Shown: positions 3,979 through 30,510 of the stretch, piece by piece
Layout: each line of letters opens with the position of its first letter
How positions within the stretch are numbered: the first letter of the stretch is position 1
DNA from: Patescibacteria group bacterium
GTDB taxonomy: Bacteria > Patescibacteriota > Patescibacteriia > 2-01-FULL-39-33
Assembly (NCBI GenBank): GCA_041649575.1
Contig: JBAZMW010000004.1
Span: 60,001 to 92,000 of the forward strand
Length of the DNA: 32,000 bases
Direction of reading: 5' to 3'
The notes under the pieces: model-generated
Seen by the model: the letters and a program-made list of their open reading frames with translations, nothing else
Told to the model about the DNA's origin: nothing
Databases searched by the model: none
Program-made: the position numbers and the translations under genes

Positions 3979-4007
3979 TTGACAAAATAGCTGAAACAAT
4001 ATATAAT
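3979..4007 (+). promoter_or_regulatory. consensus sigma70-type promoter TTGACA-17 bp-TATAAT
   Basis: TTGACA at 3979-3984, a 17-nt spacer, then TATAAT at 4002-4007. It sits about 75 nt upstream of the 4082 ATG. Confidence 0.55.
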
Positions 4008-4081
4008 GCCGGAGTTGCCCGAGAACTGTTCTTGGCCGCAGCATTAAACCGTGGAGAAGTTTTGGAGGAGGGAAGACGCCC

Positions 4082-4921
4082 ATGGCAATATCCGCCAACA
4101 ATGGCGCCAACTCAATGCCAGCGCCGCTACTAGAAAGGCAGGAAGCGGTACTTAAGTTCTTTCCCAACAGAAAGCCGTCATCCAGACTTGATAGCAGCCC
4201 GTCTATCTCTGGACACGAAGGCATCGTGGTCTTTCCTGACAAGGAGCTTGGGCGAGCGATCGCTTCACAATGCTTGGTTGGCAAGAGTCTGCAGATCATG
4301 CTACAAGTCTACAAAACCGCAAGAGGGACCCACGTCTGGACCGCCAGCAAACACCCCCGAAAGAATCTGGTACTTCAAACCGCCGACCTTGGCGGAAAAG
4401 AAGTGGCGGTCATCATCGACGGGCAAAACCTGCTGGGGTCCATGAGACGACTCGGGCTGAAGTCAATGGTTGACACTATTAGCAGGGTTCTGCGACCATT
4501 CAGGCCGAAGCTTATCAATCTTTACCTGGGAGCCAACGACCTTATACAACTACTTCCCGCTGACAGGACAGCACTCCATTCCGGCGCAAGGATTGGTGAA
4601 ACGCAGTTGACACTCTTCACTGTGGAGACTCGGCGCGTGGCCGACGATAACGGTACCAGAATGAAGAACAATATCGACGGCAGTATACTGCCGATCCTGG
4701 GAGAGCTGACAAACGACAGATCTTGCGAAGGCCTAATACTCTTTACGGGCGACAAGGATTTCAGCACCGGCGTGGAGCTTTGGATGGGTATTGGCGAACA
4801 ATCACACCGCCCGGGCAGACCGGCCATTGTGGTCTCGGCCGATCCCATGCTTAGCACCGAACTGCGAGAGGCCATGAACCACCCCAGAGGGAACCTGATC
4901 TTTTTGGAAGACCTGTGTTGA
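4082..4921 (+). CDS. NYN/LabA-like (PIN-like nuclease fold) domain protein with an unassigned N-terminal ~100 aa
   Basis: 279-aa ORF. Motifs VAVIIDGQNL, NNIDGSILPILGEL and LILFTGDKDF match the acidic motifs of the NYN (DUF88/LabA) family. Shine-Dalgarno GGAGGAGGG at 4064-4072. The stretch is GC-rich (37/60 G+C hand-counted at 4381-4440). Confidence 0.55.
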   Translation: MAISANNGANSMPAPLLERQEAVLKFFPNRKPSSRLDSSPSISGHEGIVVFPDKELGRAIASQCLVGKSLQIMLQVYKTARGTHVWTASKHPRKNLVLQTADLGGKEVAVIIDGQNLLGSMRRLGLKSMVDTISRVLRPFRPKLINLYLGANDLIQLLPADRTALHSGARIGETQLTLFTVETRRVADDNGTRMKNNIDGSILPILGELTNDRSCEGLILFTGDKDFSTGVELWMGIGEQSHRPGRPAIVVSADPMLSTELREAMNHPRGNLIFLEDLC

Positions 4922-4943
4922 AACCAGTCTGCGCTATAACACC

Positions 4944-4979
4944 CGGCCGACTCTGGCAAGAGTCTGGCCGATTTTTTTT
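4944..4979 (+). terminator. rho-independent terminator of the NYN cassette
   Basis: CGGCCGACTCT-ggca-AGAGTCTGGCCG stem with one bulged base, followed by A then T8 (4972-4979). Confidence 0.7.
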
Positions 4980-5053
4980 ATTAAAAAACGCCAAGACAAT
5001 CTAAATTCCGAAGCCTGACTTAAAATTTGTAAATTCCTGAATTTCAACTAAAA

Positions 5054-22235: not shown

Positions 22236-23879
22236 ATGTTTTTAGGTATTTTCATTAGAGTCAACAGGTGGTTAGAGCAAAATAATTTACTGGCATATTT
22301 AATAATATTTTTGATTTGTCTGGTCGTTTTTTCTTGGTTGCAGTATGCCCCAGTCTTTCCCGATCCAGACTCTTTTTATCATGTTAAACTAAGCCAACTA
22401 ATGGGGCAGGGTGGGATCATAAAAAGTTTTCCTTATCAGCAATTCACGATTTTAAAAGATGGTTATATTGATCATCATTTTTTGTATCATCTGTTTTTGG
22501 TGCCCTTTGTCACCTATTTGCCCTCACCGCTCGGTGGCAAGTTGCTTCAGGTGATTTTGGATTCTTTGTTGGTTTTGACTTTTTTTTGGTTGTTAAAAAA
22601 GTTTAAGATCAGGGGAGCTTTTTGGTATGTTTGGTTGTTGTTTCTGGGAACGACTTTTATTTTTCGTATCAGTCTAGTCAAAGCCCAGCCCTTGTCTATC
22701 ATCATTCTCTTTTTAGGCGTCTATCTGATTCTGAGTCGTCGTTATTTTAAGCTTATGGCTCTGGCTTTTGTTTACGTTTGGGCCTACGGCGGCTGGTTTT
22801 TGCTATTAATTCTAACTTTGATTTATATTTTCACTGTGGCTCTAAATCAGGCCGTAAAAGAAACAGACGTCGGTCGAGTTAGAAAAATTTTGATAAAAAC
22901 CGGCTGGCTAAAAAGAAGGTGGCTGCTTAATTTTGTTAAGGGCTTGATAAACGGTTTGTTTAAGGCCGACAATTTTAAGCTGCTGGCCAGCGTGGCTGGC
23001 GGTTTATTGCTGGGAGTTGTCATTAATCCTTATTTCCCGCAAAATCTGAATTTTTATTGGGTGCAAATAGTTCAAATTGGTTTGGCTAATTACCAGCATC
23101 TTATTGGTGTCGGCGCGGAGTGGTATCCTTATAGTTTCCCGGATTTTTTAAAGAATTTAGCCGTACCGCTCGTCTTGGCGCTGCTGGCTTTAGTCTTGTA
23201 TCTCGATTATTATAAAAAATACAGCGTGGCAGTAAAATATTTGAGTTTTATTTTCTTATTTTTTTTGATAGCCACCATTAAATCCAGAAGGAACATCGAG
23301 TATCTGGTGCCTTTTTGCTTGTTGTTCGTCGCTATGGTTTTTAGCGCCGCCAGCCAACTGAAAGAAGTAAAAGGAGCTTTGGCGGTTTTTAGAGAGAGAA
23401 TTTGGCAGACCCTTTTTATTAAACAATCGGTCAATCTCTTGCTAATAGCGGCGTTAGTGCTGCTGTTCGCCAATTCGCTTTTGGGGGTCAAAAGCAGCTT
23501 AAGTCGCGGCTGGAATTTTAATTATTTGCAGGCGCCGTCCGAGTACCTAAAAAACAATTCTCAAACAGGCGACATCGTTTTTACCAGTGATTGGGACGAA
23601 TTTACGGTGCTTTTTTATCATAACGATAAGAATTATTATCTAAATGGGCTGGACCCGACCTTCATGTATTTGTATAATAAAGACCTCTATCGCCAGTGGC
23701 GCGACATTACCGAGGGCAAGAGATCGGGGGAAATTTACGAGATTATAAAAAATAATTTTCGGGCCAAATACGTTTTGGTTTCCCAGGGCCATACGGCCAT
23801 GGAGAATAACTTGGATAATAATTTTCGTTTTAAAAGAGTTTATCAGGATAAAGAAGCCACTCTTTATCAGGTTTTATGA
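22236..23879 (+). CDS. polytopic membrane protein, probable GT-C-fold (ArnT/PMT-like) glycosyltransferase
   Basis: 547 aa with many predicted TM helices. An acidic first-loop motif (FPDPDSFYH) and a soluble C-terminal part. The stop overlaps the downstream GT2 start (ATGA). Function is inferred from architecture and context. Confidence 0.45.
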   Translation: MFLGIFIRVNRWLEQNNLLAYLIIFLICLVVFSWLQYAPVFPDPDSFYHVKLSQLMGQGGIIKSFPYQQFTILKDGYIDHHFLYHLFLVPFVTYLPSPLGGKLLQVILDSLLVLTFFWLLKKFKIRGAFWYVWLLFLGTTFIFRISLVKAQPLSIIILFLGVYLILSRRYFKLMALAFVYVWAYGGWFLLLILTLIYIFTVALNQAVKETDVGRVRKILIKTGWLKRRWLLNFVKGLINGLFKADNFKLLASVAGGLLLGVVINPYFPQNLNFYWVQIVQIGLANYQHLIGVGAEWYPYSFPDFLKNLAVPLVLALLALVLYLDYYKKYSVAVKYLSFIFLFFLIATIKSRRNIEYLVPFCLLFVAMVFSAASQLKEVKGALAVFRERIWQTLFIKQSVNLLLIAALVLLFANSLLGVKSSLSRGWNFNYLQAPSEYLKNNSQTGDIVFTSDWDEFTVLFYHNDKNYYLNGLDPTFMYLYNKDLYRQWRDITEGKRSGEIYEIIKNNFRAKYVLVSQGHTAMENNLDNNFRFKRVYQDKEATLYQVL

Positions 23880-24607
23880 AAATTTTAATTGTCTTTCCGG
23901 TTTATAACGAGCAGCTGATTGTGGAGAAGAGTGTCAGACAAACGCTGGATTTTTGTCGAGGAAATTTTTGCTCCGATCGGTTCAAAATCGTGGTGGCCGA
24001 CAACAATTCAACCGACAAGACGGCGGAAGTGGTTAAGGGGCTGGTCGGGGAAACAGCCGAACTGGAGTATTTTTTCATTCCGGAGAAAGGCAAGGGTCTG
24101 GCTTGGCGTAGCGTTTTTTTGCAAGAGACGGCCGACATTTATATTTTTATGGATGTTGATCTGGCGGTGGCTCTCGAGGATCTTAAATCTCTAGTGGCAG
24201 GAATAAAATCGGGCTATGCTTTGGTAATCGGTTCGAGATTTTTGGCAGCGGCCAAGGTGGAGCGATCTTTTTTGAGAAGCTTGGTTTCTTTCACTTATCG
24301 TTTTTTGGTGCGGCTGATGCTGAAAAGTAAAATTAGCGATTTTCCTTGCGGCTTCAAAGCCTTAAACCAAACAATCAAAGAAAAGGTTTTGCCTCTGACG
24401 CAGGACAAACTGTTTTTTTTGGACACGGAGCTGGTGGTGCTGGCCGAAAAAATGGGTTACCGGATCAAAGAGGTGCCGGTTAACTGGTCGCAGTTTCGCG
24501 ATCTGGCCAGGAAGAGCACAGTTAATATTATGGAAACCGCTGTCGAGTATTTTGTAAAAATCTGGCGGTTAAGAAAAAGGATAAACAATTTATCAGAACG
24601 TCGCTGA
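23876..24607 (+). CDS. family-2 glycosyltransferase (polyprenol-phosphate sugar synthase-like)
   Basis: 243 aa. Motifs ILIVFPVYNE, VVADNNSTDKT and the DxD-type MDVDLA. Confidence 0.8.
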   Translation: MKILIVFPVYNEQLIVEKSVRQTLDFCRGNFCSDRFKIVVADNNSTDKTAEVVKGLVGETAELEYFFIPEKGKGLAWRSVFLQETADIYIFMDVDLAVALEDLKSLVAGIKSGYALVIGSRFLAAAKVERSFLRSLVSFTYRFLVRLMLKSKISDFPCGFKALNQTIKEKVLPLTQDKLFFLDTELVVLAEKMGYRIKEVPVNWSQFRDLARKSTVNIMETAVEYFVKIWRLRKRINNLSERR

Positions 24608-24629: not shown

Positions 24630-24658
24630 TTGACATTTTGGGTTATTTTTGGAATAAT
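24630..24658 (+). promoter_or_regulatory. near-consensus promoter TTGACA-17 bp-AATAAT
   Basis: TTGACA at 24630-24635 and AATAAT at 24653-24658. Confidence 0.5.
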
Positions 24659-24723
24659 GGAGCGTTACCCTGGAGGTAATGAACATTGGTCAACAAATCC
24701 CCTTTTCGGGGTATGGGAGAGCG

Positions 24724-25311
24724 ATGATGAACAGGAACAGGCAAGCGGTATTTCTGGTGATTTTGGCGGTTGCGGCGGCTGGGTGTTCGACGACGGTCAG
24801 TCCCAACGGCTATCGTAGGGACTTTCTGACTTTCGGCGGCGAGCGGTATCAGAAGTACCAAGACCCGCGGCTGGAGGCGAATTCCGGAGTCGTGGCTTAC
24901 AGTGGCATTAACGGCCCAAGCGGTCCATACGCGGCCGCGTTGGCAGTCGGCAGTATCTCCGACCCGGCGGCGCGGCGTGATGCGGCCGAGACCATAAAGA
25001 GCGTGGCCGAGAATGAAGGAGCCTATGGCGGCGGACGAGCGGCCGGTGGCTACCGCGGCTATCACGGCGGGTTTAGACAGTTGGGCTATCTGCTCAACAA
25101 CAGCAACGAAACGCGTTTTGTCAGTGTTGACGGCAGCCGGCCGATCGAGGTGCTGCCTTGGCGCAAGTTGTTTCTGGAGCTGCTGCCCGGCGACCACCAG
25201 CTGGTGGTGACAAGCCGGAGCGGCGCTTTCATCAAGGAACGGTCTTTCGTCGTGAATGAGGAAAGGCGCGATGCGCCCGATCACCTCCACGATTGGATGC
25301 AGAACATTTAG
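24724..25311 (+). CDS. GC-rich putative lipoprotein with a PEGA-like C-terminal beta domain
   Basis: The track ORF starts at 24679. I prefer the ATG at 24724 because it gives the signal peptide MMNRNRQAVFLVILAVAAAG-C with a lipobox-like AAGC. The C-terminal FVSVDGSRPIEVLPWRKLFLELLPGDHQLVV resembles PEGA/Ig-like beta domains. G+C is 36/60 and 38/60 in hand-counted samples at 24841-24960. Confidence 0.5.
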   Translation: MMNRNRQAVFLVILAVAAAGCSTTVSPNGYRRDFLTFGGERYQKYQDPRLEANSGVVAYSGINGPSGPYAAALAVGSISDPAARRDAAETIKSVAENEGAYGGGRAAGGYRGYHGGFRQLGYLLNNSNETRFVSVDGSRPIEVLPWRKLFLELLPGDHQLVVTSRSGAFIKERSFVVNEERRDAPDHLHDWMQNI

Positions 25312-25340
25312 GGGGAGTGTAAACAGGCACAAGAACAAAA

Positions 25341-25369
25341 GGGACGCGAGATCTCGGAAATCGCGCCCC
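25341..25369. terminator. hairpin terminator between the convergent lipoprotein gene and the pilin-like array
   Basis: GGGACGCGA-gatctcggaaa-TCGCGCCCC. On the minus strand the single non-canonical pair becomes a G-U wobble and the stem is followed by CTTTTGTT. Confidence 0.55.
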
Positions 25370-25393
25370 TTGAAATTTTTATTACAGACGAGA

Positions 25394-25807
25394 TTAAGGC
25401 GTACCTGTTCCAGTAGAGGCTCTGTTTAGCTGATCGACGATAAAATAAGAGATGGAGTAGGAAGCTAAGACGATCACTAGTCCAATGGTAGCGGCGATAA
25501 TAATATCTTTGGCTTTTTTGACTTTTCCATCGTCGCCGCTAGCGATCATCCAGATGAAGCCGGCATAGATAATAAGCATGATGAAGATGACGCCGAGAAT
25601 TCCCAAGGCTACGCCGATTATTCTGCCGACAGCGATAGGCAGAGCGTTTTCACTGGCGTCGCCGCCCAGGCCGGAATTTTCTTTGACGGTATTAAGTTTG
25701 TCTAACATGCCGGTACTGGCCAAGGAGACGGCCGGCAGGCAAAACAAAGACATGACTACCAGCAAAACGATCGCGATGACGATTTTTTTTATTAATATTT
25801 TTTTCAT
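25394..25807 (-). CDS. VirB2/TrbC-like small two-TM secreted membrane protein (pilin-like paralog 1)
   Basis: 137 aa. Signal peptide ending SLA-STG, a variable segment, TM1, the loop YAGFIWMIASGDDGKVKKAKDII, TM2, and the tail NRASTGTGTP. Confidence 0.6.
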   Translation of the reverse strand: MKKILIKKIVIAIVLLVVMSLFCLPAVSLASTGMLDKLNTVKENSGLGGDASENALPIAVGRIIGVALGILGVIFIMLIIYAGFIWMIASGDDGKVKKAKDIIIAATIGLVIVLASYSISYFIVDQLNRASTGTGTP

Positions 25808-25839
25808 AAGTTGGTGTCGACTTTAATTATTTAGGTTGT

Positions 25840-26220
25840 TTATTTGATTCCCATGGCCGACATGACAAAAATTGTGATGCTGTAAGAGGCCAAGACAATT
25901 ACTAGTCCAATGGTAGCGGCAATGATGATATCTTTAGCTTTTTTAATTTTGCTTTCTTCGCCCGAAGCGGTCATCCACAGGAAACCGGCATAAATTATAA
26001 GGATGATAAAGATGACGGCCAGCATGGACAAAAGGGCGCTGATCATCTGGCCGACCACCACTTCAATGGTTCCAGATTTTTTAAGGGCATCAGGCGCAGC
26101 CGAGTCGAGGCCGGCCACTGGTGTTAAATCGGCTGCCAGCGAAAGAGAAGGAAAAATTAAAAAGGCCAAGAGAAACAGGAAGACTATTATTTTTTTTGAT
26201 TTTAGACAAGAGAAGTTCAT
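25840..26220 (-). CDS. VirB2/TrbC-like pilin-like paralog 2
   Basis: The track ORF extends to 26274 using a GTG that lies inside a strong hairpin. I prefer the ATG at 26220 (MNFSCLKSKKIIVFLFLL..., 126 aa). Loop YAGFLWMTASGEESKIKKAKDII. The 23-aa block KKAKDIIIAATIGLVIVLASYSI is identical to paralog 1. Confidence 0.6.
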   Translation of the reverse strand: MNFSCLKSKKIIVFLFLLAFLIFPSLSLAADLTPVAGLDSAAPDALKKSGTIEVVVGQMISALLSMLAVIFIILIIYAGFLWMTASGEESKIKKAKDIIIAATIGLVIVLASYSITIFVMSAMGIK

Positions 26221-26247
26221 GGAGTGTTTGGCGGTTGAAATTGGAAC

Positions 26248-26271
26248 GGGGAAGGGGTAGGCCCCTTCCCC
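26248..26271 (-). promoter_or_regulatory. perfect 10-bp G/C-rich intercistronic stem-loop between paralogs 3 and 2
   Basis: GGGGAAGGGG-tagg-CCCCTTCCCC read directly. No U-run follows on the minus strand, so it is not a classical terminator. Confidence 0.5.
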
Positions 26272-26285
26272 CACAACTATTTACT

Positions 26286-26672
26286 TTATGGATTGCCAGC
26301 GCCAGTAGCAGTAGCAATTTGACTGATGACGAAGGCGGCGATAGCCCAGGCCGCCAAGATAATCACTAAACCGATAATGCCGGAATAAATTAATTTTTTG
26401 GCTTTCTCAACTTTTTCATCAGCACCAGCGGCGGTCATCCAAATGAAACCGCCCCAGAGGATCAAGAGAACAGCGATAATACCCAAAATTCCCAAAATCG
26501 CATTAATAGCTAAAGAGATGGTCTCGGTCAGGTCTTGTTTGCCTAGCTGGACGTTCTCGAGGTTATTTAAGCCGAAGTTCGTATCAGCCGGACTAGCCAG
26601 AACCACTGCCGGCAAAGCGAAAGCTGTCAAAGCGGCGACTGCCAGTAAAGTTCCGATAATTCTTTTTTTCAT
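26286..26672 (-). CDS. VirB2/TrbC-like pilin-like paralog 3
   Basis: 128 aa. Signal peptide ending VLA-SPA, loop WGGFIWMTAAGADEKVEKAKKLI, and a strong Shine-Dalgarno (AAGGGGGTG). Confidence 0.6.
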   Translation of the reverse strand: MKKRIIGTLLAVAALTAFALPAVVLASPADTNFGLNNLENVQLGKQDLTETISLAINAILGILGIIAVLLILWGGFIWMTAAGADEKVEKAKKLIYSGIIGLVIILAAWAIAAFVISQIATATGAGNP

Positions 26673-26747
26673 TATTTCACCCCCTTTCTATATCGCGCTT
26701 ATTTTATGAAATTTAACGCGAGATTTATTTTTTATTTGACTGACTTT

Positions 26748-26756
26748 ATTATAGCA
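26748..26756 (-). promoter_or_regulatory. extended -10 element TGCTATAAT (minus strand) upstream of paralog 3
   Basis: Plus-strand ATTATAGCA at 26748-26756, inside the 110-bp AT-rich gap between paralogs 4 and 3. Confidence 0.45.
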
Positions 26757-26782
26757 TATTTGGCCATTAGTCAGACTAGCAG

Positions 26783-27196
26783 TTATCCACCAAAGCAGGG
26801 GCCTGTTTGATTTAGAGCCGGAATACTGCTGTTGCCGTAAATGGCGCCAATGGCCACGCTGATTAAGGTATAAGCTAGAAAAATAATGACAAGGCCAATA
26901 ACGGTGGCGATAATAACCCCCCTACCCGATTGAATTTGCGATTCTTTGCCGTAGGCGGTGAGCCAGAGTAGCCCGCCGTAGATAAACATCAGTAGCGCAA
27001 TAGTGCCGCTTAGGCCGGTAATCAAGTCGGCGGCTTTGACCAGGACGGTGATGATGTCGCAGGGATTACAGTTTTCGGCGGTGCCGCTGCAATTTTCCGG
27101 GATTAATCCGTCAGCCAAGGCTGGGCCGACAAAAGCCGAGACGGCGAGCGCAGTCAAAACAAAAATTAAGAGCAGCTTAGATTTGGTCTTCTTCAT
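26783..27196 (-). CDS. VirB2/TrbC-like pilin-like paralog 4 (Cys-containing variant)
   Basis: 137 aa. Signal peptide ending ALA-DGL. The exposed segment is ENCSGTAENCNPCD. Loop YGGLLWLTAYGKESQIQSGRGVI. C-terminal tail ends GPCFGG. The ATG overlaps the SBP stop (ATGA at 27193-27196). Confidence 0.55.
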   Translation of the reverse strand: MKKTKSKLLLIFVLTALAVSAFVGPALADGLIPENCSGTAENCNPCDIITVLVKAADLITGLSGTIALLMFIYGGLLWLTAYGKESQIQSGRGVIIATVIGLVIIFLAYTLISVAIGAIYGNSSIPALNQTGPCFGG

Positions 27197-28560
27197 TTAA
27201 AGGTTTGGTTAATTTTGGAGATGGCTGTTTTGACGATGTCGTTAAACTCTTTTTCCTCGGTGGCTTTGAGCAGATTTTCCGTCATTTCTTTGAAAGCATT
27301 TTCGGCCGCTAGCGGGTCTTTGCCTTCGTACCAGTTGGTGGCTGTCAGTGTTTGCACGGCTGAAGCATGGAGATCCTCATCTTCCAGCTGACTGTTAATC
27401 AGAGACTTGAGAGCGGCCGGGCGATTGGTTTTGTTGAGGAATTTTTTGACTTGTTCTTCCTGATTGGCAAAGATGACAAAGTCCCAGGCTTCATTGGTAT
27501 TTTTTGATTTTTTGGAAACAGTCTCGATAAAATAGTTGGCGTAGTTTTTGGGATTATCGGGATTAACTTGAGGCAAAGGGGCAACGCCCAGATTTAGCTT
27601 GGGAGCTTGAGCGCGGATGATGGGAATAGAATAATTGTAGCCAAAAATGAAGCCGACTTTGCCAGAGAGAAAGGCTGCCAAAGAATCGGGCAGATCCGAA
27701 TTCCAGCAATAAACGTTTTTGGTGGGTGAGGCGAAATCAAGGTAGAATTTGATGGCTTCCAGTCCTGGATTATAGTTTTTGTCTTTGGTTTTACTGATGA
27801 TGGCGTAGCCGCTAGCATCGGTCATGACGGCATCGTTTTGCAGCATTAGAATAGAGAGGATATCGAAACTGCGGCTGACATTGTAGCCGGTACCCAGAGC
27901 TGTTCCTGATTGGATAATATTGTTTTCCTTGTCAAAACGGTTGATTTTTTGGACCGCGTCCTGAAAGCTCTTCCAGTCGGTCGGTGGCGTAGTTATCGCC
28001 GATTTATTGAGAATGTCGCGGTTGTAGAGCATGATCAGGCTCTCCAGGCTCAAAGGCAGACCATAAATTTTGTTATCCAGCACCAGGTTTTTGTAAACAA
28101 TTTCCGCGTAGTCGTCTTTGATTTGCCGTAGGCTTAAGGTTTTTTTGGTTCTTAGCTCTGCCACCGTTTCTTTTTTGATGGTTCCTTTTATGACCTGATA
28201 GGCCATGGTGATTTCTTCCGGCATCGGCTCGATTTTGGCCTGATATTTGCGCAAGAGGTTTTCGTTGAGGGAAAAAATATCCGGTCCGCGGTCTTCGGCC
28301 AGAGCGTCTAAAAGCTCCTGCTCGTATTCTTCCGGCCGGAATTTGCGGTAATTAATGTTGATATTGGGATGGAGCTCGCGATAGGCCTTGATGATTTCGC
28401 TAAAAGCGTCTTCGTCGTCGTAGAGCCGCCAGTATTCCAGGGTGATCGGTTTTTGGTGTTCTTTAACCTCACCGCTGGGGCTTTTGCAGCCAAAACCGGA
28501 GGTAATCAAAAAAATAAAGATTAAAAATAAAGGCAGGATTTTCAAAAAGTTATTTTTCAT
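27193..28560 (-). CDS. extracellular solute-binding protein (ABC-type family 1, sugar-type), probable lipoprotein, with no cognate permease or ATPase nearby
   Basis: 455 aa. N-terminus MKNNFLKILPLFLIFIFLITSGFG-C. ITLEYWRLYDDEDAFSEIIKAYRELHPNINI and the overall layout are typical of family-1 SBPs. Confidence 0.75.
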   Translation of the reverse strand: MKNNFLKILPLFLIFIFLITSGFGCKSPSGEVKEHQKPITLEYWRLYDDEDAFSEIIKAYRELHPNININYRKFRPEEYEQELLDALAEDRGPDIFSLNENLLRKYQAKIEPMPEEITMAYQVIKGTIKKETVAELRTKKTLSLRQIKDDYAEIVYKNLVLDNKIYGLPLSLESLIMLYNRDILNKSAITTPPTDWKSFQDAVQKINRFDKENNIIQSGTALGTGYNVSRSFDILSILMLQNDAVMTDASGYAIISKTKDKNYNPGLEAIKFYLDFASPTKNVYCWNSDLPDSLAAFLSGKVGFIFGYNYSIPIIRAQAPKLNLGVAPLPQVNPDNPKNYANYFIETVSKKSKNTNEAWDFVIFANQEEQVKKFLNKTNRPAALKSLINSQLEDEDLHASAVQTLTATNWYEGKDPLAAENAFKEMTENLLKATEEKEFNDIVKTAISKINQTFK

Positions 28561-28594: not shown

Positions 28595-28603
28595 ATTATA
28601 ACA
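28595..28603 (-). promoter_or_regulatory. extended -10 element TGTTATAAT (minus strand) upstream of the SBP gene
   Basis: Plus-strand ATTATAACA at 28595-28603, about 35 nt upstream of the SBP ATG. Confidence 0.4.
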
Positions 28604-28816
28604 AGAAAACCGGGACGAGTGCAATTCGTCAGGGTTTTTGTGTTTAGTGAGGGGAAATTAAAAGAGGTTTTGATTTTCTAAAGAAACGCGGCAGTTATTG
28701 TTTTTGTTAAATCATAGGTCGAATTTGGCAGAGTTGACTGTTAAGAAACAATAATGCTAGGATAACATCTTGTGATAGATTCTGGTTCAGCGCACCTTAC
28801 AAAGGAGGATCCGGCC

Positions 28817-29848
28817 ATGAAGACCATCCAGGTAAAAAGGCTTTTTCCAGACGCCCAGATTCCGGTACGTGCTTCTAACGGAGCCGTGGGGTTTGACGTC
28901 TTCGCCTACGGCGTGCTTGATATGGAGACTAAGGAATACGCGGGAGAATTGCCTTTTGTTTTGCTTCCTGGCAAAAGGATTTTGATTGGTATTGGCGTTT
29001 CCTTTGCCTTGCCTTGGCCCGTTGAGTGTCAGGTTCGTCCGCGTAGCGGCCTGGCCAACAGATACGGGATTGAGCTTGGCAACTCCCCCGGGACAATCGA
29101 TCCGGATTTCCGCGGCAACATAGGGGTACTGCTGACTAACCGCAGCGATGAGCCATTCACCATCACCAAGGGCATGCGGATAGCTCAACTGATCTTCGCC
29201 GACGTGAAAACCCCGGTTTTTGAGGAAGTCGCCGAATTGTCGGCGACCAGACGGGGAGCCGGCGGCTTCGGCTCCACCGGCCTAGGGGCGGTTCGCGAGG
29301 GAACCACGGAGTATTTTCGGTTGGTCGCGGAGCAAGACAGGTTCTATATGAAGATGGCTATTGCGGCCGCCAACCGCTCCAATTGCGCCCGTGGCTGTCA
29401 GAAAGATGGCAATGGGCGCTATCTTCGCGACAAGGATGGCGGGCTGATCGGACAAACGCGCAAGTTTGGCTGCGTGATAGTCAAGGGGGACAATGTCGTC
29501 TCTATTGGCTATAACGCTCAAGCTCCCGGTCAGCCGCTCTGCGCCGATGTCGGCTGTCTGCGCGAAGCAGAAGGCATCGCTTCCGGTACGCGAATTGAGC
29601 GGTGTCGCGCCGTTCACGCCGAAGATCACGCCTTTCTGAAGATGTTGGCCAGCGGAGTCGCTGCGTCCACCGTGGGCGCCACGATGTATGTGACTTCAGA
29701 GCCATGCGAGGTCTGTGCCAAGTCTATCGCCGGATCGGGCGTGGACACACTGGTGGTGCTGGAGGGCGTCTACCCCACAAATGGCATCCAGATCGTCAGA
29801 GATGCCGGAGTCAACATCCGTTTTGTCAAGCAGGAAGCGGTGATGTAG
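28817..29848 (+). CDS. fusion protein: trimeric dUTPase (N-terminal) + dCMP/cytidine deaminase zinc-binding domain (C-terminal)
   Basis: The track ORF starts at GTG 28772. I prefer ATG 28817, which is preceded by AAAGGAGGA (343 aa). dUTPase motifs: GFDV, RPRSGLA, GTIDPDFRGNIGV, RIAQLIF, RRGAGGFGSTG. Deaminase motifs: AVHAEDHA and SEPCEVCAKSI. G+C is 37/60 in a hand-counted sample at 29041-29100. Confidence 0.8.
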   Translation: MKTIQVKRLFPDAQIPVRASNGAVGFDVFAYGVLDMETKEYAGELPFVLLPGKRILIGIGVSFALPWPVECQVRPRSGLANRYGIELGNSPGTIDPDFRGNIGVLLTNRSDEPFTITKGMRIAQLIFADVKTPVFEEVAELSATRRGAGGFGSTGLGAVREGTTEYFRLVAEQDRFYMKMAIAAANRSNCARGCQKDGNGRYLRDKDGGLIGQTRKFGCVIVKGDNVVSIGYNAQAPGQPLCADVGCLREAEGIASGTRIERCRAVHAEDHAFLKMLASGVAASTVGATMYVTSEPCEVCAKSIAGSGVDTLVVLEGVYPTNGIQIVRDAGVNIRFVKQEAVM

Positions 29849-29968: not shown

Positions 29969-30130
29969 CTCGTCGTCCCGTCTTCGGCGGGGCTCTGTCC
30001 TGGGTTGGCGCCAATCATTCACCGGATGATTGGCGGCGTTCGCCTTCGGCTCACTGCCAACCCGTTCAAATCCCAGCCTTTCTGTCGAAAGGCAAATTTT
30101 ACTCCCGCTTCGCGGGGTAAAATTTTCCTT
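29969..30130 (-). other. 162-nt GC-rich, hairpin-dense segment of unknown nature between the tRNA and its displaced 3' fragment
   Basis: Minus-strand hairpins read directly. (1) UUUUACCCCGC-gaa-GCGGGaGUAAAA. (2) GCCUUUC-GACA-GAAAGGC, with a GNRA loop. (3) GGGUUGGC...GCCAACCC, which encloses GCC-gaa-GGC and GCCAAUCAU-ccgguga-AUGAUUGGC. (4) CCCG-ccgaaga-CGGG. There is no ORF of credible composition. Confidence 0.35.
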
Positions 30131-30217
30131 CGGAGAGGGAGGGATTTGAACCCTCGAGACCCTTTCAGGCCTATCGCTTTTCGAGAGCGACCTATTCAAC
30201 CACTCTAGCACCTCTCC
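30131..30217 (-). tRNA. tRNA-Ser (anticodon CGA), class II with a long variable arm, CCA not encoded
   Basis: Folded by hand. Acceptor GGAGAGG/CCTCTCC. D arm CTA...TAG with GG in the loop. Anticodon stem TCGCT/AGCGA with loop CTCGAAA. 18-nt variable arm. T arm GAGGG-TTCAAAT-CCCTC. Discriminator G. 87 nt in total. Confidence 0.9.
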
Positions 30218-30230
30218 ATGTTTGTTATTT

Positions 30231-30488
30231 TTATTTTTCCAATATAACCGTTTTTATTCTTGTCTTTAAGACTCTTCTCCCTTGACCGGTTTTATAAAAT
30301 AACTCTTGATTTCTGGCATCTTTCTCATATTTGAAAGCCTCGTAATATATAATCTCTAATGGCCTTCTATTTCTTGTGCTTTCAACTTTTCCGGAAGCGT
30401 GTTCCATAAACCTCCTTCTTAAGTCGCTAGTATACCCAATATACAGTTTTTTATCATACTGACTTTTAAGGATATAAACAAAAAACAT
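30231..30488 (-). CDS. small stand-alone GIY-YIG (URI-domain) nuclease
   Basis: The track ORF starts at TTG 30509. I prefer ATG 30488 (85 aa): MFFVYILKSQYDKKLYIGYTSDLRRRFMEHASGK, with GIY-like and YIG motifs and the conserved R, E and N further on. The stop is 13 nt upstream of the tRNA 5' end. Confidence 0.8.
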   Translation of the reverse strand: MFFVYILKSQYDKKLYIGYTSDLRRRFMEHASGKVESTRNRRPLEIIYYEAFKYEKDARNQELFYKTGQGRRVLKTRIKTVILEK

Positions 30489-30510
30489 TATTATTTTTAG
30501 TTTTATCAAC

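What the first reader, a model, noticed from the sequence alone, without database searches (positions are those of the whole stretch)
25394..28560. Four tandem VirB2/TrbC-like two-TM mini-proteins in an operon with, and translationally coupled to, an orphan solute-binding lipoprotein
Seen in sequence: four consecutive minus-strand genes (137, 126, 128 and 137 aa) share one architecture. Each has a signal peptide ending in an AxA-like site, 25-35 unrelated exposed residues, TM1, a conserved charged loop (Y[AG]GF.WM.A.G...K..KAK..I), TM2 and a short variable tail. Paralogs 1 and 2 share an identical 23-aa block (KKAKDIIIAATIGLVIVLASYSI) and a 21-nt identical DNA core (ACTAGTCCAATGGTAGCGGC region), while their exposed parts differ. 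Only paralog 4 has four Cys in its exposed parts. The stop of the upstream 455-aa SBP lipoprotein overlaps the start of paralog 4 (ATGA). The window contains no ABC permease or ATPase and no VirB4/VirD4/VirB6 gene. Established knowledge: signal peptide plus two hydrophobic helices around a short basic loop is the topology of TrbC/VirB2 conjugative pilins, and similar proteins in Patescibacteria are annotated as T4SS pilins. Inference: this may be a surface filament or adhesion module with diversified exposed segments, possibly using the SBP as a ligand-binding partner. I do not know of a described system with this composition.
Basis: partly seen in the sequence, partly recalled or inferred. 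Interest (0 to 1): 0.7.

Follow-up and report, generated by a model that had tools for sequence, protein, structure and literature searches.

The report
Sugar-binding lipoprotein operon with VirB2-like pilins
In this ultrasmall (Patescibacteria) bacterium a sugar-binding surface lipoprotein is co-transcribed with four conjugation-type pilin genes, and the same pairing occurs in about 80 related species and once inside a type IV secretion gene cluster, so the binding protein is probably an undescribed accessory of that secretion system.

Summary
Five minus-strand genes sit between a promoter-like site and a terminator hairpin. They encode a MalE-class oligosaccharide-type solute-binding lipoprotein (SBP, 27193-28560) and four small two-helix proteins. 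All four score above the gathering threshold of Pfam PF18895 (T4SS_pilin, VirB2-like).

Arrays of such pilins are already described in Patescibacteria, and a six-gene array is essential in Southlakia epibionticum. The SBP link appears to be new.

- In 79 of 80 SBP orthologues from species-representative genomes (48-63% identity), the next same-strand gene is a pilin. The one exception is an ORF-picking artefact.
- The gaps are usually -4 to +20 nt, although the flanks are rearranged.
- The pairing also holds in all five informative loci of homologues at about 30-35% identity. In one of these, a tandem double SBP lies between a PrgI/VirB4/VirB1-like block and four pilins.
- The SBP-adjacent pilin is its own Cys-rich orthologue group.
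- Paralogue order is conserved, so the copies are an ancient fixed set and not recent variants.
- No ABC permease lies near any SBP.

Best reading: a detached pilin module of the Patescibacterial T4SS with a glycan-binding receptor as partner. The mechanism is inferred, not shown. I rate it a new variant of a known kind, of moderate to high interest.

The parts
28595..28624 (-). Promoter-like site: TTGCAC, 18 nt, TATAAT preceded by TGT (extended -10), about 35 nt upstream of the SBP start codon
   Evidence: Read directly from the sequence. The consensus scan did not list it because the -35 hexamer matches only 3 of 6. Function is not shown.
27193..28560 (-). Solute-binding lipoprotein (455 aa) of the MalE-like oligosaccharide-binding class. 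Signal peptide ends in the conserved TSGFGC (Cys25). Carries a conserved beta-hairpin insertion at about residues 112-142.
   Evidence: Pfam SBP_bac_8 2.9e-27 and SBP_bac_1 2.6e-22. AlphaFold2 pLDDT 90.4. Best Foldseek PDB matches are oligosaccharide SBPs at E about 1e-22. G22 and C25 are invariant in 29 homologues. The hairpin region is not aligned to solved homologues.
26783..27196 (-). P4, the SBP-adjacent ('position 1') VirB2-like pilin (137 aa), with four Cys (three before helix 1, one in the C-terminal tail). Its start overlaps the SBP stop (ATGA).
   Evidence: PF18895 34.8 bits (cut-off 26.6) and PF04956 TrbC 25.6 bits (cut-off 27.9). Its best hits in other genomes are all position-1 pilins. 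Cys enrichment at position 1: 62/78 versus 14/261 at other positions.
26286..26672 (-). P3, VirB2-like pilin (128 aa), preceded by a strong Shine-Dalgarno sequence (AAGGGGGTG). Orthologue of the first gene of the distal pilin array in related genomes.
   Evidence: PF18895 49.4 bits. NF045849 47.5 bits, above its cut-off of 40. Best hits are p2of7, p2of4 and p3of5 in other loci. Upstream sequence.
25840..26220 (-). P2, VirB2-like pilin (126 aa from the ATG; alternative GTG start at 26274 gives 144 aa)
   Evidence: PF18895 30.7 bits. The ATG start gives a normal signal peptide. Public gene calls use the GTG. The true start is unresolved.
25394..25807 (-). P1, VirB2-like pilin (137 aa), last gene of the operon
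   Evidence: PF18895 31.1 bits. 49% identical to P2.
25331..25371 (-). Intrinsic-terminator-like hairpin (11-bp G+C-rich stem) followed by UUUUGUUCUU, 23 nt after the P1 stop codon
   Evidence: RNA fold -20.3 kcal/mol, z = -3.06 against shuffles. Sequence.

Best explanation
The locus is a five-gene operon running from a promoter-like site to a terminator hairpin. It makes an oligosaccharide-type solute-binding lipoprotein and four VirB2-like pilins of the Patescibacterial type IV secretion system (T4SS).

The pilins are a fixed, ancient set of non-equivalent subunits: one Cys-rich 'position 1' pilin coupled to the SBP, and three array pilins. They are inserted into the membrane through their Sec signal peptides. 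Most likely they are assembled by a VirB4-type machine encoded elsewhere in the genome.

The SBP stays lipid-anchored at the cell surface next to them. It probably acts as the glycan-binding receptor of this apparatus, either recognising a conserved sugar on or from the host cell or capturing it as a substrate. The position-1 pilin would be its dedicated adaptor.

Shown here: gene identities, operon layout, conservation of the SBP-pilin junction, position-specific orthology, and one case of embedding in a T4SS cluster. Inferred: physical SBP-pilin contact, glycan ligand, pilus formation, and use of a distant VirB4 machine.
For: - Family assignment: PF18895 above threshold for all four pilins, and SBP_bac_1/8 for the SBP. 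NF045849 passes for P3.
- SBP model pLDDT is 90.4, and its top structural matches are sophoro-, manno-, malto- and cello-oligosaccharide binding proteins.
- Junction conservation: 79 of 80 SBP orthologues from species-representative genomes are followed directly by a same-strand pilin, mostly with gaps of -4 to +20 nt. The exception, L066, has a pilin-model hit overlapping the SBP end.
- The flanks differ between loci (SMC, ComM-like, FG-GAP or dUTPase upstream). In 42 loci 2-5 kb of unrelated genes are inserted after pilin 1, yet the SBP-pilin 1 pair stays intact.
- The pairing persists at about 30-35% overall SBP identity (28% per domain for the double SBP): L089, L092/L093, L094, L095.
- In L091 a double SBP lies between PrgI, TraC-like, VirB4 and SLT/NlpC-P60 genes and four pilins, again with an ATGA overlap.
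- Position-specific orthology: the best hit is at the same position in 96-100% of comparisons for six of seven positions, in 23 species.
- Position-1 pilins are Cys-rich: 62/78 versus 14/261.
- No permease motif occurs in any of about 85 loci.
- A six-gene PF18895 array is part of the essential T4SS cluster of Southlakia epibionticum (PMC10633639 and its supplement; PMC12857230).
Against: - No VirB4, VirB6 or VirD4 lies in about 48 kb around this locus or within 10 kb in the 80 orthologous loci. The link to a T4SS machine therefore rests on family names plus a single contig (L091) of undetermined lineage.
- No SBP-pilin fusion protein was found among the 150 best cluster representatives.
- The pilin model matches no solved pilin, either by fold or by profile.
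- PF18895 genes also occur singly, with neither SBP nor T4SS genes nearby, so the family may not be restricted to T4SS pili.
- The SBP is unusually well conserved for a host-specific adhesin (48-64% identity across many species). That fits nutrient binding as well as it fits host recognition.
- The rest of the genome could not be searched for a shared ABC permease.
Confidence: 0.45

Rival explanations
1. Co-regulation only. The SBP is the receptor of an ordinary sugar ABC importer whose permease and ATPase are encoded elsewhere. The pilins belong to a T4SS encoded elsewhere. They share a promoter because both are needed during host contact, with no physical interaction.
For: The SBP has a full MalE-like fold, with many invariant aromatic and acidic residues typical of sugar binding. 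Orphan SBPs that borrow a chromosomal permease are known, for example PrgZ of pCF10 (PMC5552905). No fusion proteins were found.
Against: Mere co-regulation rarely preserves an exact gene junction with -4 to +20 nt spacing across SBP identities from 63% down to about 30% while both flanks and the rest of the array are rearranged. No permease lies near any of about 85 loci, which is unusual for carbohydrate SBPs. The adjacent pilin is a dedicated orthologue group found only at this position.
Confidence: 0.25
2. The SBP-fold protein is an assembly factor or chaperone for the pilins. It would work like TraQ or TraX, or like a scaffold that holds pilin 1 before polymerisation. Ligand binding would be lost or secondary.
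For: Translational coupling to one particular Cys-rich pilin. A conserved family-specific beta-hairpin insertion absent from solved sugar-binding relatives. Position just upstream of the pilins and downstream of the machine genes in L091.
Against: The two-lobe fold and the conserved aromatic residues look like an intact binding protein. No precedent for an SBP-fold pilin chaperone was found in the searched literature.
Confidence: 0.12
3. The two-helix proteins are not pilus subunits here. They would form a hetero-oligomeric membrane complex that serves the SBP directly as a transporter or sensor, replacing an ABC permease.
For: No permease or ATPase lies nearby in any locus. The set of non-equivalent paralogues has fixed number and order, as expected for a stoichiometric complex. 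PF18895 genes occur far from T4SS genes. The pilin fold could not be matched to solved pilins.
Against: There is no energising component. The family has sequence links to TrbC/VirB2 and to mycoplasma ICE pilin-like proteins. L091 places the module inside a T4SS cluster. The six-pilin array of Southlakia is part of its T4SS cluster.
Confidence: 0.08
4. The array is an antigenic or host-range variation device: recently duplicated pilins with rapidly diversifying exposed segments. This is the first reader's 'diversified exposed segments' and the suggestion made for such arrays in PMC12102498.
For: Exposed N-terminal and C-terminal segments are less conserved than the helices (0.35-0.49 versus 0.59-0.62 column conservation among position-1 orthologues). 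Within-array identity is low (median 35%).
Against: Paralogues are ancient and keep their position across species. The P1/P2 identical block carries 11 synonymous changes, so there is no recent conversion. No repeats or cassettes typical of variation systems were seen.
Confidence: 0.07

Closest known systems
VirB2-like pilin arrays of the Patescibacterial T4SS (Southlakia epibionticum SEML1_0014-0019; arrays of 2-11 genes surveyed by Quinonero-Coronel et al. 2025)
   Same: Same Pfam family (PF18895), same size and layout, tandem sequence-divergent copies, and monoderm Patescibacteria hosts. The six-gene distal array seen here in 22 relatives matches the six genes of Southlakia.
   Different: In Southlakia the array is inside the VirB4 cluster and no SBP is reported. 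Here the array is detached from any VirB4 and is headed by an SBP plus an extra Cys-rich pilin. None of the papers mentions a solute-binding protein.
TrbC/VirB2 conjugative pilins of Gram-negative T4SS (Pfam PF04956; RP4 TrbC, Ti-plasmid VirB2)
   Same: Signal peptide, two hydrophobic helices around a short basic loop, both ends outside the cell. P4 gives a weak PF04956 hit, and several of its homologues carry PF04956 hits.
   Different: The score is below the PF04956 threshold. No cyclisation enzyme is nearby. Instead, the 3+1 Cys pattern of the position-1 pilin could tie the N-terminal segment to the C-terminal tail by a disulfide (inference). The host is monoderm.
Sulfolobus bindosome (Bas system)
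   Same: Sugar-binding proteins depend on small pilin-like proteins and a filament-assembly machine to be functional at the cell surface (PMC3047682). This is the only described system pairing sugar SBPs with pilins.
   Different: The bindosome uses type IV pilin-like (class III signal peptide) proteins, and the SBPs themselves carry that signal. Here the SBP has a lipoprotein-type signal peptide and the pilins are of VirB2 type. The two are analogous, not homologous.
PrgZ/TraC pheromone-binding proteins of enterococcal conjugative plasmids
   Same: An orphan SBP encoded with a Gram-positive-type T4SS that has no permease of its own and works through a chromosomal ABC system (PMC5552905, PMC7117660).
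   Different: PrgZ is an OppA-type peptide binder (SBP family 5) in the regulatory region and is not coupled to pilins. The protein here is a MalE-type sugar binder translationally coupled to a pilin.
Carbohydrate ABC-importer binding proteins (MalE-like, e.g. 5YSE sophoro-oligosaccharide, 4R9G manno-oligosaccharide, 7X0L cellodextrin binders)
   Same: Same fold and Pfam families, lipoprotein anchoring as in Gram-positive bacteria.
   Different: Only 14-20% identity. There is an extra conserved beta-hairpin. No adjacent permease or ATPase genes occur in about 85 loci.

Membership tests
Pfam PF18895 T4SS_pilin | Score at or above the family's gathering threshold (26.6 bits) | tested here: met
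   P1 31.1, P2 30.7, P3 49.4, P4 34.8 bits
Pfam PF18895 T4SS_pilin | Signal peptide followed by a two-helix hydrophobic hairpin with a short charged loop | tested here: met
   Alignment. AlphaFold2 model of P4 has helices 5-28, 46-80 and 85-120, pLDDT 82-89 over the hairpin.
Pfam PF18895 T4SS_pilin | Encoded with T4SS machine genes (VirB4, VirB3/PrgI, VirB6) | tested here: not met
   None in the window or in about 16 kb beyond it, and none within 10 kb in 80 orthologous loci. Met only in the distant relative L091.
Pfam PF18895 T4SS_pilin | Polymerises into an extracellular pilus | not testable with these tools
   Needs microscopy or proteomics. It has not been shown for any Patescibacterial member in the papers read.
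TrbC/VirB2 (Pfam PF04956) | Score at or above the gathering threshold (27.9 bits) | tested here: not met
   Only P4 hits, at 25.6 bits, E 1.5e-5. Profile and fold searches against solved structures found no pilin.
NCBIfam NF045849 (Mbov_0395 family pilin-like conjugal transfer protein) | Score at or above the cut-off (40 bits) | tested here: inconclusive
   P3 47.5 bits passes. P1 31.4 and P2 27.1 bits are below the cut-off. P4 has no hit.
ABC-importer solute-binding protein, MalE-like carbohydrate class | SBP_bac_1/SBP_bac_8 domain and two-lobe fold | tested here: met
   Pfam 96.6 and 80.7 bits. Foldseek E about 1e-22, TM 0.6-0.8 to oligosaccharide SBPs.
ABC-importer solute-binding protein, MalE-like carbohydrate class | Encoded with cognate permease and ATPase genes | tested here: not met
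   No EAA-motif permease in any of about 85 loci. All Walker-A/LSGGQ hits are SMC. Whole genomes could not be searched.
ABC-importer solute-binding protein, MalE-like carbohydrate class | Binds a sugar ligand | not testable with these tools
   Only indirect support: invariant Trp, Tyr, Asp, Asn and Gln residues.
Bacterial lipoprotein | Signal peptide ending in a lipobox with invariant Cys | tested here: inconclusive
   The n- and h-regions are followed by TSGFGC. G22 and C25 are invariant and T20, F23 and G24 nearly so. However, G-F-G at positions -3 to -1 is not the canonical L-[AS]-[GA]. An LspA (Peptidase_A8) gene is present in the related genome L003.
Archaeal bindosome (Bas) | Class III (type IV pilin-like) signal peptides on SBPs and Bas pilins, with a BasE/BasF assembly ATPase and platform | tested here: not met
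   The SBP and the pilins have Sec-type signal peptides. No T4P-type ATPase is in the locus.

The most novel reading that the evidence does not exclude
The SBP and the VirB2-like proteins could form the extracellular front end of an import device. The lipoprotein would capture a host-derived oligosaccharide and hand it to a channel or filament built from the fixed set of pilin paralogues and driven by the VirB4 machine. That would be an SBP-dependent, T4SS-type uptake system replacing the missing ABC permease. It would also explain why the relaxase-less T4SS is essential for these auxotrophic epibionts.
Probability: 0.1. Interest if true: 0.9.

Novelty: new variant of a known kind. Interest (0 to 1): 0.6.

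Why it matters
The T4SS of Patescibacteria is essential for epibiotic growth, lacks a relaxase, and is unusual among monoderm T4SSs in having pilins. What it transports or binds is unknown (PMC10633639, PMC12857230). A sugar-binding protein locked to one dedicated pilin across many species, and placed inside a T4SS cluster in at least one lineage, gives the first concrete candidate for a ligand-recognition component. It makes the question testable through ligand screening of a soluble, well-folded SBP, pull-downs with pilin 1, and deletion in a tractable relative. It also shows that the pilin 'arrays' are fixed heteromeric sets and not variation cassettes, which changes how they should be modelled.

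Tried and rejected
- Fold search of the P4 model against the PDB gave no significant match (best E 3.5, HtrII helical hairpins). A two-helix hairpin is too simple for Foldseek.
- A profile of 31 pilins against PDB sequences gave only chance membrane-helix hits.
- The consensus promoter/terminator scan missed both operon boundaries, which were then found by eye and by folding.
- A search for SBP-pilin fusion proteins among 150 cluster representatives found none. It found only two tandem double SBPs.
- Supplements of PMC12102498 contain no solute-binding terms. Literature searches for SBP plus VirB2 or Patescibacteria found nothing relevant.
- The metagenome scan with the double SBP P0256 gave one weak hit. 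Its 17 relatives and their cluster members carry no organism names, so the lineage of L091 stays undetermined.
- Recent gene conversion between P1 and P2 was considered and rejected, because the identical block has 11 synonymous differences.
- A disulfide between the SBP and the pilin was considered and rejected, because the SBP's second Cys (C285) is not conserved.
- The 231-aa minus-strand ORF at 24643-25338 was treated as spurious, because public gene calls take the overlapping plus-strand 210-aa ORF.

Full report
**1. What is in the sequence**

They are the SBP 27193-28560 (455 aa), P4 26783-27196 (137 aa), P3 26286-26672 (128 aa), P2 25840-26220 (126 aa) and P1 25394-25807 (137 aa).

- The SBP stop and the P4 start overlap as ATGA. 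The other intergenic gaps are 110, 65 and 32 nt.
- P1 and P2 share an identical 23-residue block. The longest identical DNA run is 20 nt, not 21.
- That block carries 11 synonymous differences in 69 nt. The identity therefore reflects purifying selection on the protein, not recent gene conversion.
- P4 alone has four Cys in its mature part.
- About 35 nt upstream of the SBP start there is TTGCAC-18 nt-TATAAT with a TGT extended -10.
- 23 nt after the P1 stop there is an 11-bp G+C-rich hairpin followed by UUUUGUUCUU (-20.3 kcal/mol, z = -3.06).
- The unit therefore looks like one operon. Co-transcription itself is inferred.
- The start of P2 is ambiguous. The ATG at 26220 gives a normal signal peptide, but public gene calls use a GTG at 26274.

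**2. What the proteins are**

- All four small proteins exceed the gathering score of Pfam PF18895 (T4SS_pilin): 31.1, 30.7, 49.4 and 34.8 bits against 26.6.
- P4 also gives a sub-threshold TrbC/VirB2 hit of 25.6 bits against 27.9.
- In NCBIfam, P3 passes NF045849, the 'Mbov_0395 family pilin-like conjugal transfer protein' of mycoplasma ICEs. P1 and P2 hit it below the cut-off.
- All 28 database homologues of P4 carry PF18895, and several also carry PF04956.
- An AlphaFold2 model of P4 shows a signal-peptide helix and a hairpin of two long helices (46-80 and 85-120).
- Neither fold search nor profile search finds a solved pilin. The VirB2 relationship therefore rests on the Pfam and NCBIfam profiles, not on structure.
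- The SBP hits SBP_bac_8 and SBP_bac_1 and models at pLDDT 90.4.
- Its best structural matches are oligosaccharide-binding proteins of ABC importers (sophoro-, manno-, malto-, cello- and arabino-oligosaccharide binders) at 14-20% identity, E about 1e-22.
- Its signal peptide ends in TSGFGC, with G22 and C25 invariant in 29 homologues. It is probably a lipoprotein, although the lipobox is not canonical.
- It carries a well-conserved beta-hairpin (about residues 112-142) that falls in a stretch not aligned to solved relatives and about 16-21 residues longer than theirs.

**3. Genomic setting**

- The window is chromosomal and close to the replication origin. It holds dnaA, dnaN, yidC, polA, holA, SMC, a class A PBP, ruvC and others.
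- The same sequence lies on a 132,932-bp metagenomic contig. NCBI labels the SBP as coming from a 'Patescibacteria group bacterium'.
- No VirB4, VirB6, VirD4, ABC permease or ABC ATPase is present in the window or in the extra 6.5 kb and 9 kb read beyond its ends.

**4. Is the SBP-pilin pairing conserved?**

Yes, to a striking degree.

- The SBP has more than 2,300 homologues at E <= 1e-10. The best 120 are 50-64% identical, and the named ones are Patescibacteria or Buchananbacteria.
- Two homologues on long contigs are each followed by five PF18895 genes, while their flanks differ from the window.
- A scan of one genome per GTDB species returned 80 loci at 48-63% identity, named Buchananbacteria, Falkowbacteria, 'Parcubacteria group' or Patescibacteria.
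- I searched these loci with a profile built from the four paralogues. In 79 of 80 SBP genes with at least 450 nt of downstream sequence, the next gene on the same strand is a pilin.
- The one exception, L066, has a pilin-profile hit overlapping the SBP end and was lost only through my ORF picking.
- Gaps are mostly -4 to +20 nt, with a 4-nt overlap in seven loci. These are measured from longest ORFs, so they are lower bounds.
- Two layouts occur. In the first, the SBP is followed by 4-9 consecutive pilins, as in the window. In the second, the SBP and one pilin are followed by a 2-5 kb insert and then six more pilins.
- The insert holds an HTH_25/Glucodextran_B protein, a methyltransferase, a small membrane protein, sometimes a UPF0102 nuclease, and sometimes a GT2 plus a protein of about 540 aa.
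- Upstream neighbours vary: SMC, a ComM-like protein, an FG-GAP protein or a dUTPase.
- The SBP-pilin 1 junction has therefore survived rearrangements on both sides.

**5. Distant relatives**

- An exhaustive search of 50%-identity cluster representatives found 944 clusters at E <= 1e-30 and no SBP-pilin fusion. It did find two tandem double SBPs.
- I could fetch the context of six representatives at about 30-35% identity.
- L089 has the SBP, then a 327-aa protein whose N-terminus is a Cys-motif pilin domain, then a pilin.
- L092/L093 have the SBP followed by eight pilin genes.
- L095 has the SBP, then a 307-aa pilin with a weak peptidoglycan-binding-domain hit, then a pilin.
- L094 has a double SBP followed, 3 nt after its stop, by a truncated pilin-like ORF.
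- L090 ends right after the SBP and is uninformative.
- L091 is the key case. On one strand it carries PrgI (VirB3-like), a TraC-like protein, a 710-aa VirB4 (P-loop_TraG, CagE_TrbE_VirB, AAA_10), an SLT/NlpC-P60 hydrolase (VirB1-like) and a 188-aa protein.
- These are followed by the 871-aa double SBP, both halves of which align over the full length of our SBP (E 3e-47 and 2e-39). Four pilins come next, the first again overlapping the SBP stop as ATGA.
- This ties the SBP family to the T4SS. It is a single contig of undetermined lineage.

**6. The paralogues are a fixed set**

- In the 23 species with seven pilins, the best hit of each pilin in another genome is at the same array position in 96-100% of comparisons, for six of the seven positions.
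- In the window's clade, position 1 is the most constant (87-95%).
- P4 belongs to the position-1 group. P3 matches the first gene of the distal array. P2 and P1 match later positions.
- Position-1 pilins are Cys-rich: 62 of 78 have at least two Cys in the mature part, against 14 of 261 at other positions.
- In the window's clade, 15 of 19 position-1 pilins have three Cys before helix 1 and one Cys after helix 2.
- If all four are paired within the molecule, one disulfide must join the N-terminal segment to the C-terminal tail on the outer face. This is an inference. It would mimic the head-to-tail cyclisation known for TrbC/VirB2 (established knowledge, not tested here).
- Exposed segments are less conserved than the helices (0.35-0.49 against 0.59-0.62). 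The order and identity of the copies are nevertheless old, which argues against a variation cassette.

**7. Comparison with what is known**

- Tandem arrays of 2-11 VirB2-like pilins in Patescibacteria were reported with the same Pfam model, with low within-array identity and a suggested role in host range (PMC12102498).
- The six-gene PF18895 array SEML1_0014-0019 lies in the essential T4SS cluster of Southlakia epibionticum (PMC10633639 and its supplement).
- A recent review highlights these systems as the only monoderm T4SSs with pilins (PMC12857230).
- None of these texts, nor the supplements held, mentions a solute-binding protein. Other searches found no SBP-VirB2 system.
- The nearest functional analogies are the Sulfolobus bindosome, where sugar-binding proteins need pilin-like proteins to work at the surface (PMC3047682), and PrgZ, an orphan SBP of a Gram-positive conjugative plasmid (PMC5552905).
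- Both analogies fail the membership tests, because they involve a different pilin type, signal peptide or SBP family.

**8. Most likely mechanism, and its rivals**

- I favour a detached pilin module of the Patescibacterial T4SS. In it, a membrane-anchored glycan-binding protein is made in fixed proportion with a dedicated Cys-rich pilin and works with the pilus or T4SS as its ligand-recognition part. I put confidence at 0.45, because contact, ligand and filament are all inferred.
- The main rival is simple co-regulation of an SBP that uses a permease encoded elsewhere (0.25). It could not be excluded because whole genomes could not be searched.
- Lesser rivals are a chaperone role for the SBP (0.12), a non-pilus membrane complex serving the SBP (0.08), and an antigenic-variation array (0.07).
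- The most novel reading still open is an SBP-fed, T4SS-type import device (probability about 0.1).

**9. Verdict**

The pilin array is a known kind of feature. Its conserved coupling to an oligosaccharide-type SBP, the dedicated position-1 pilin and the fixed paralogue order appear to be new. I rate it a new variant of a known kind, with interest 0.6.

Noticed in passing
window 22236-24607 (+): A 547-aa multi-pass membrane protein with no Pfam hit is followed, with overlap, by a 243-aa GT2 that weakly resembles polyprenyl-phosphate sugar transferases (AglJ, PgfS, ArnC). The same pair recurs beside the pilin arrays in other genomes: the GT2 in 28 loci and the large membrane protein in about 30. 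It could be an extracytoplasmic glycosylation pair acting on the pilins, the SBP or the wall.
   Followed up: partly
window 24679-25311 (+): A 210-aa predicted lipoprotein with no family hit lies convergent to the operon, in a stretch of higher G+C (about 0.49). Unrelated-looking secreted proteins of 216-270 aa occupy the same convergent position after the arrays in many loci. A 231-aa ORF on the opposite strand overlaps it and is probably spurious.
   Followed up: partly
window 27193-28560, SBP residues about 112-142: A long, highly conserved two-stranded beta-hairpin (K109, P114 and K130 invariant, P112 nearly so) falls in a stretch that does not align to solved MalE-like proteins and is about 16-21 residues longer than theirs. 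It is a candidate docking element.
   Followed up: partly
window 28772-29848 (+): A fused dUTPase/dCTP-deaminase-like and dCMP/cytidine deaminase protein (358 aa) lies in the most G+C-rich part of the window (0.58 against about 0.42). It is divergent from the SBP promoter.
   Followed up: no
window 28614-28630: A 17-nt palindromic hairpin (GACGAATTGCACTCGTC) overlaps the putative -35 region of the SBP promoter. It could be an operator or a chance match.
   Followed up: no
window 30130-30218 (-): A tRNA-Ser(CGA) is the only RNA gene found by Rfam and ARAGORN. It overlaps long spurious ORFs on both strands. A GIY-YIG protein gene lies next to it at 30231-30509.
   Followed up: yes
window 4000-5000: A G+C-rich kilobase (0.53) holds only unannotated overlapping ORFs. 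The public gene call there is a 268-aa protein without Pfam hits. Rfam found no RNA family.
   Followed up: no
L023 4897-7256 (-) and 11433-13792 (+): The whole five-pilin array appears twice in mirror orientation with identical profile scores, and the SBP family has one more member than it has loci (81 members in 80 loci). This is either a real inverted duplication or an assembly palindrome.
   Followed up: no
L089 7397-8380; L034, L047, L059, L055, L044 position-1 pilins: Some SBP-adjacent pilins carry long Cys-rich extensions with a repeated motif (…GNQGYSCM…C..GYCPG…IQCC.P), either before the signal-proximal segment or after helix 2. L095's position-1 pilin has a weak PG_binding_1 hit. Position 1 seems to be where extra extracellular domains are added.
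   Followed up: no
L086 10001-10375; L087 5807-6226 and 8684-9121: Solitary PF18895 genes lie among housekeeping genes with no SBP or T4SS genes within 10 kb. The family is therefore more dispersed than its name suggests.
   Followed up: partly
PMC10633639 supplement, SEML1_0634: [quoted passage not shown] This is another apparently orphan SBP that matters for epibiotic growth, and it is not next to pilins.
   Followed up: no
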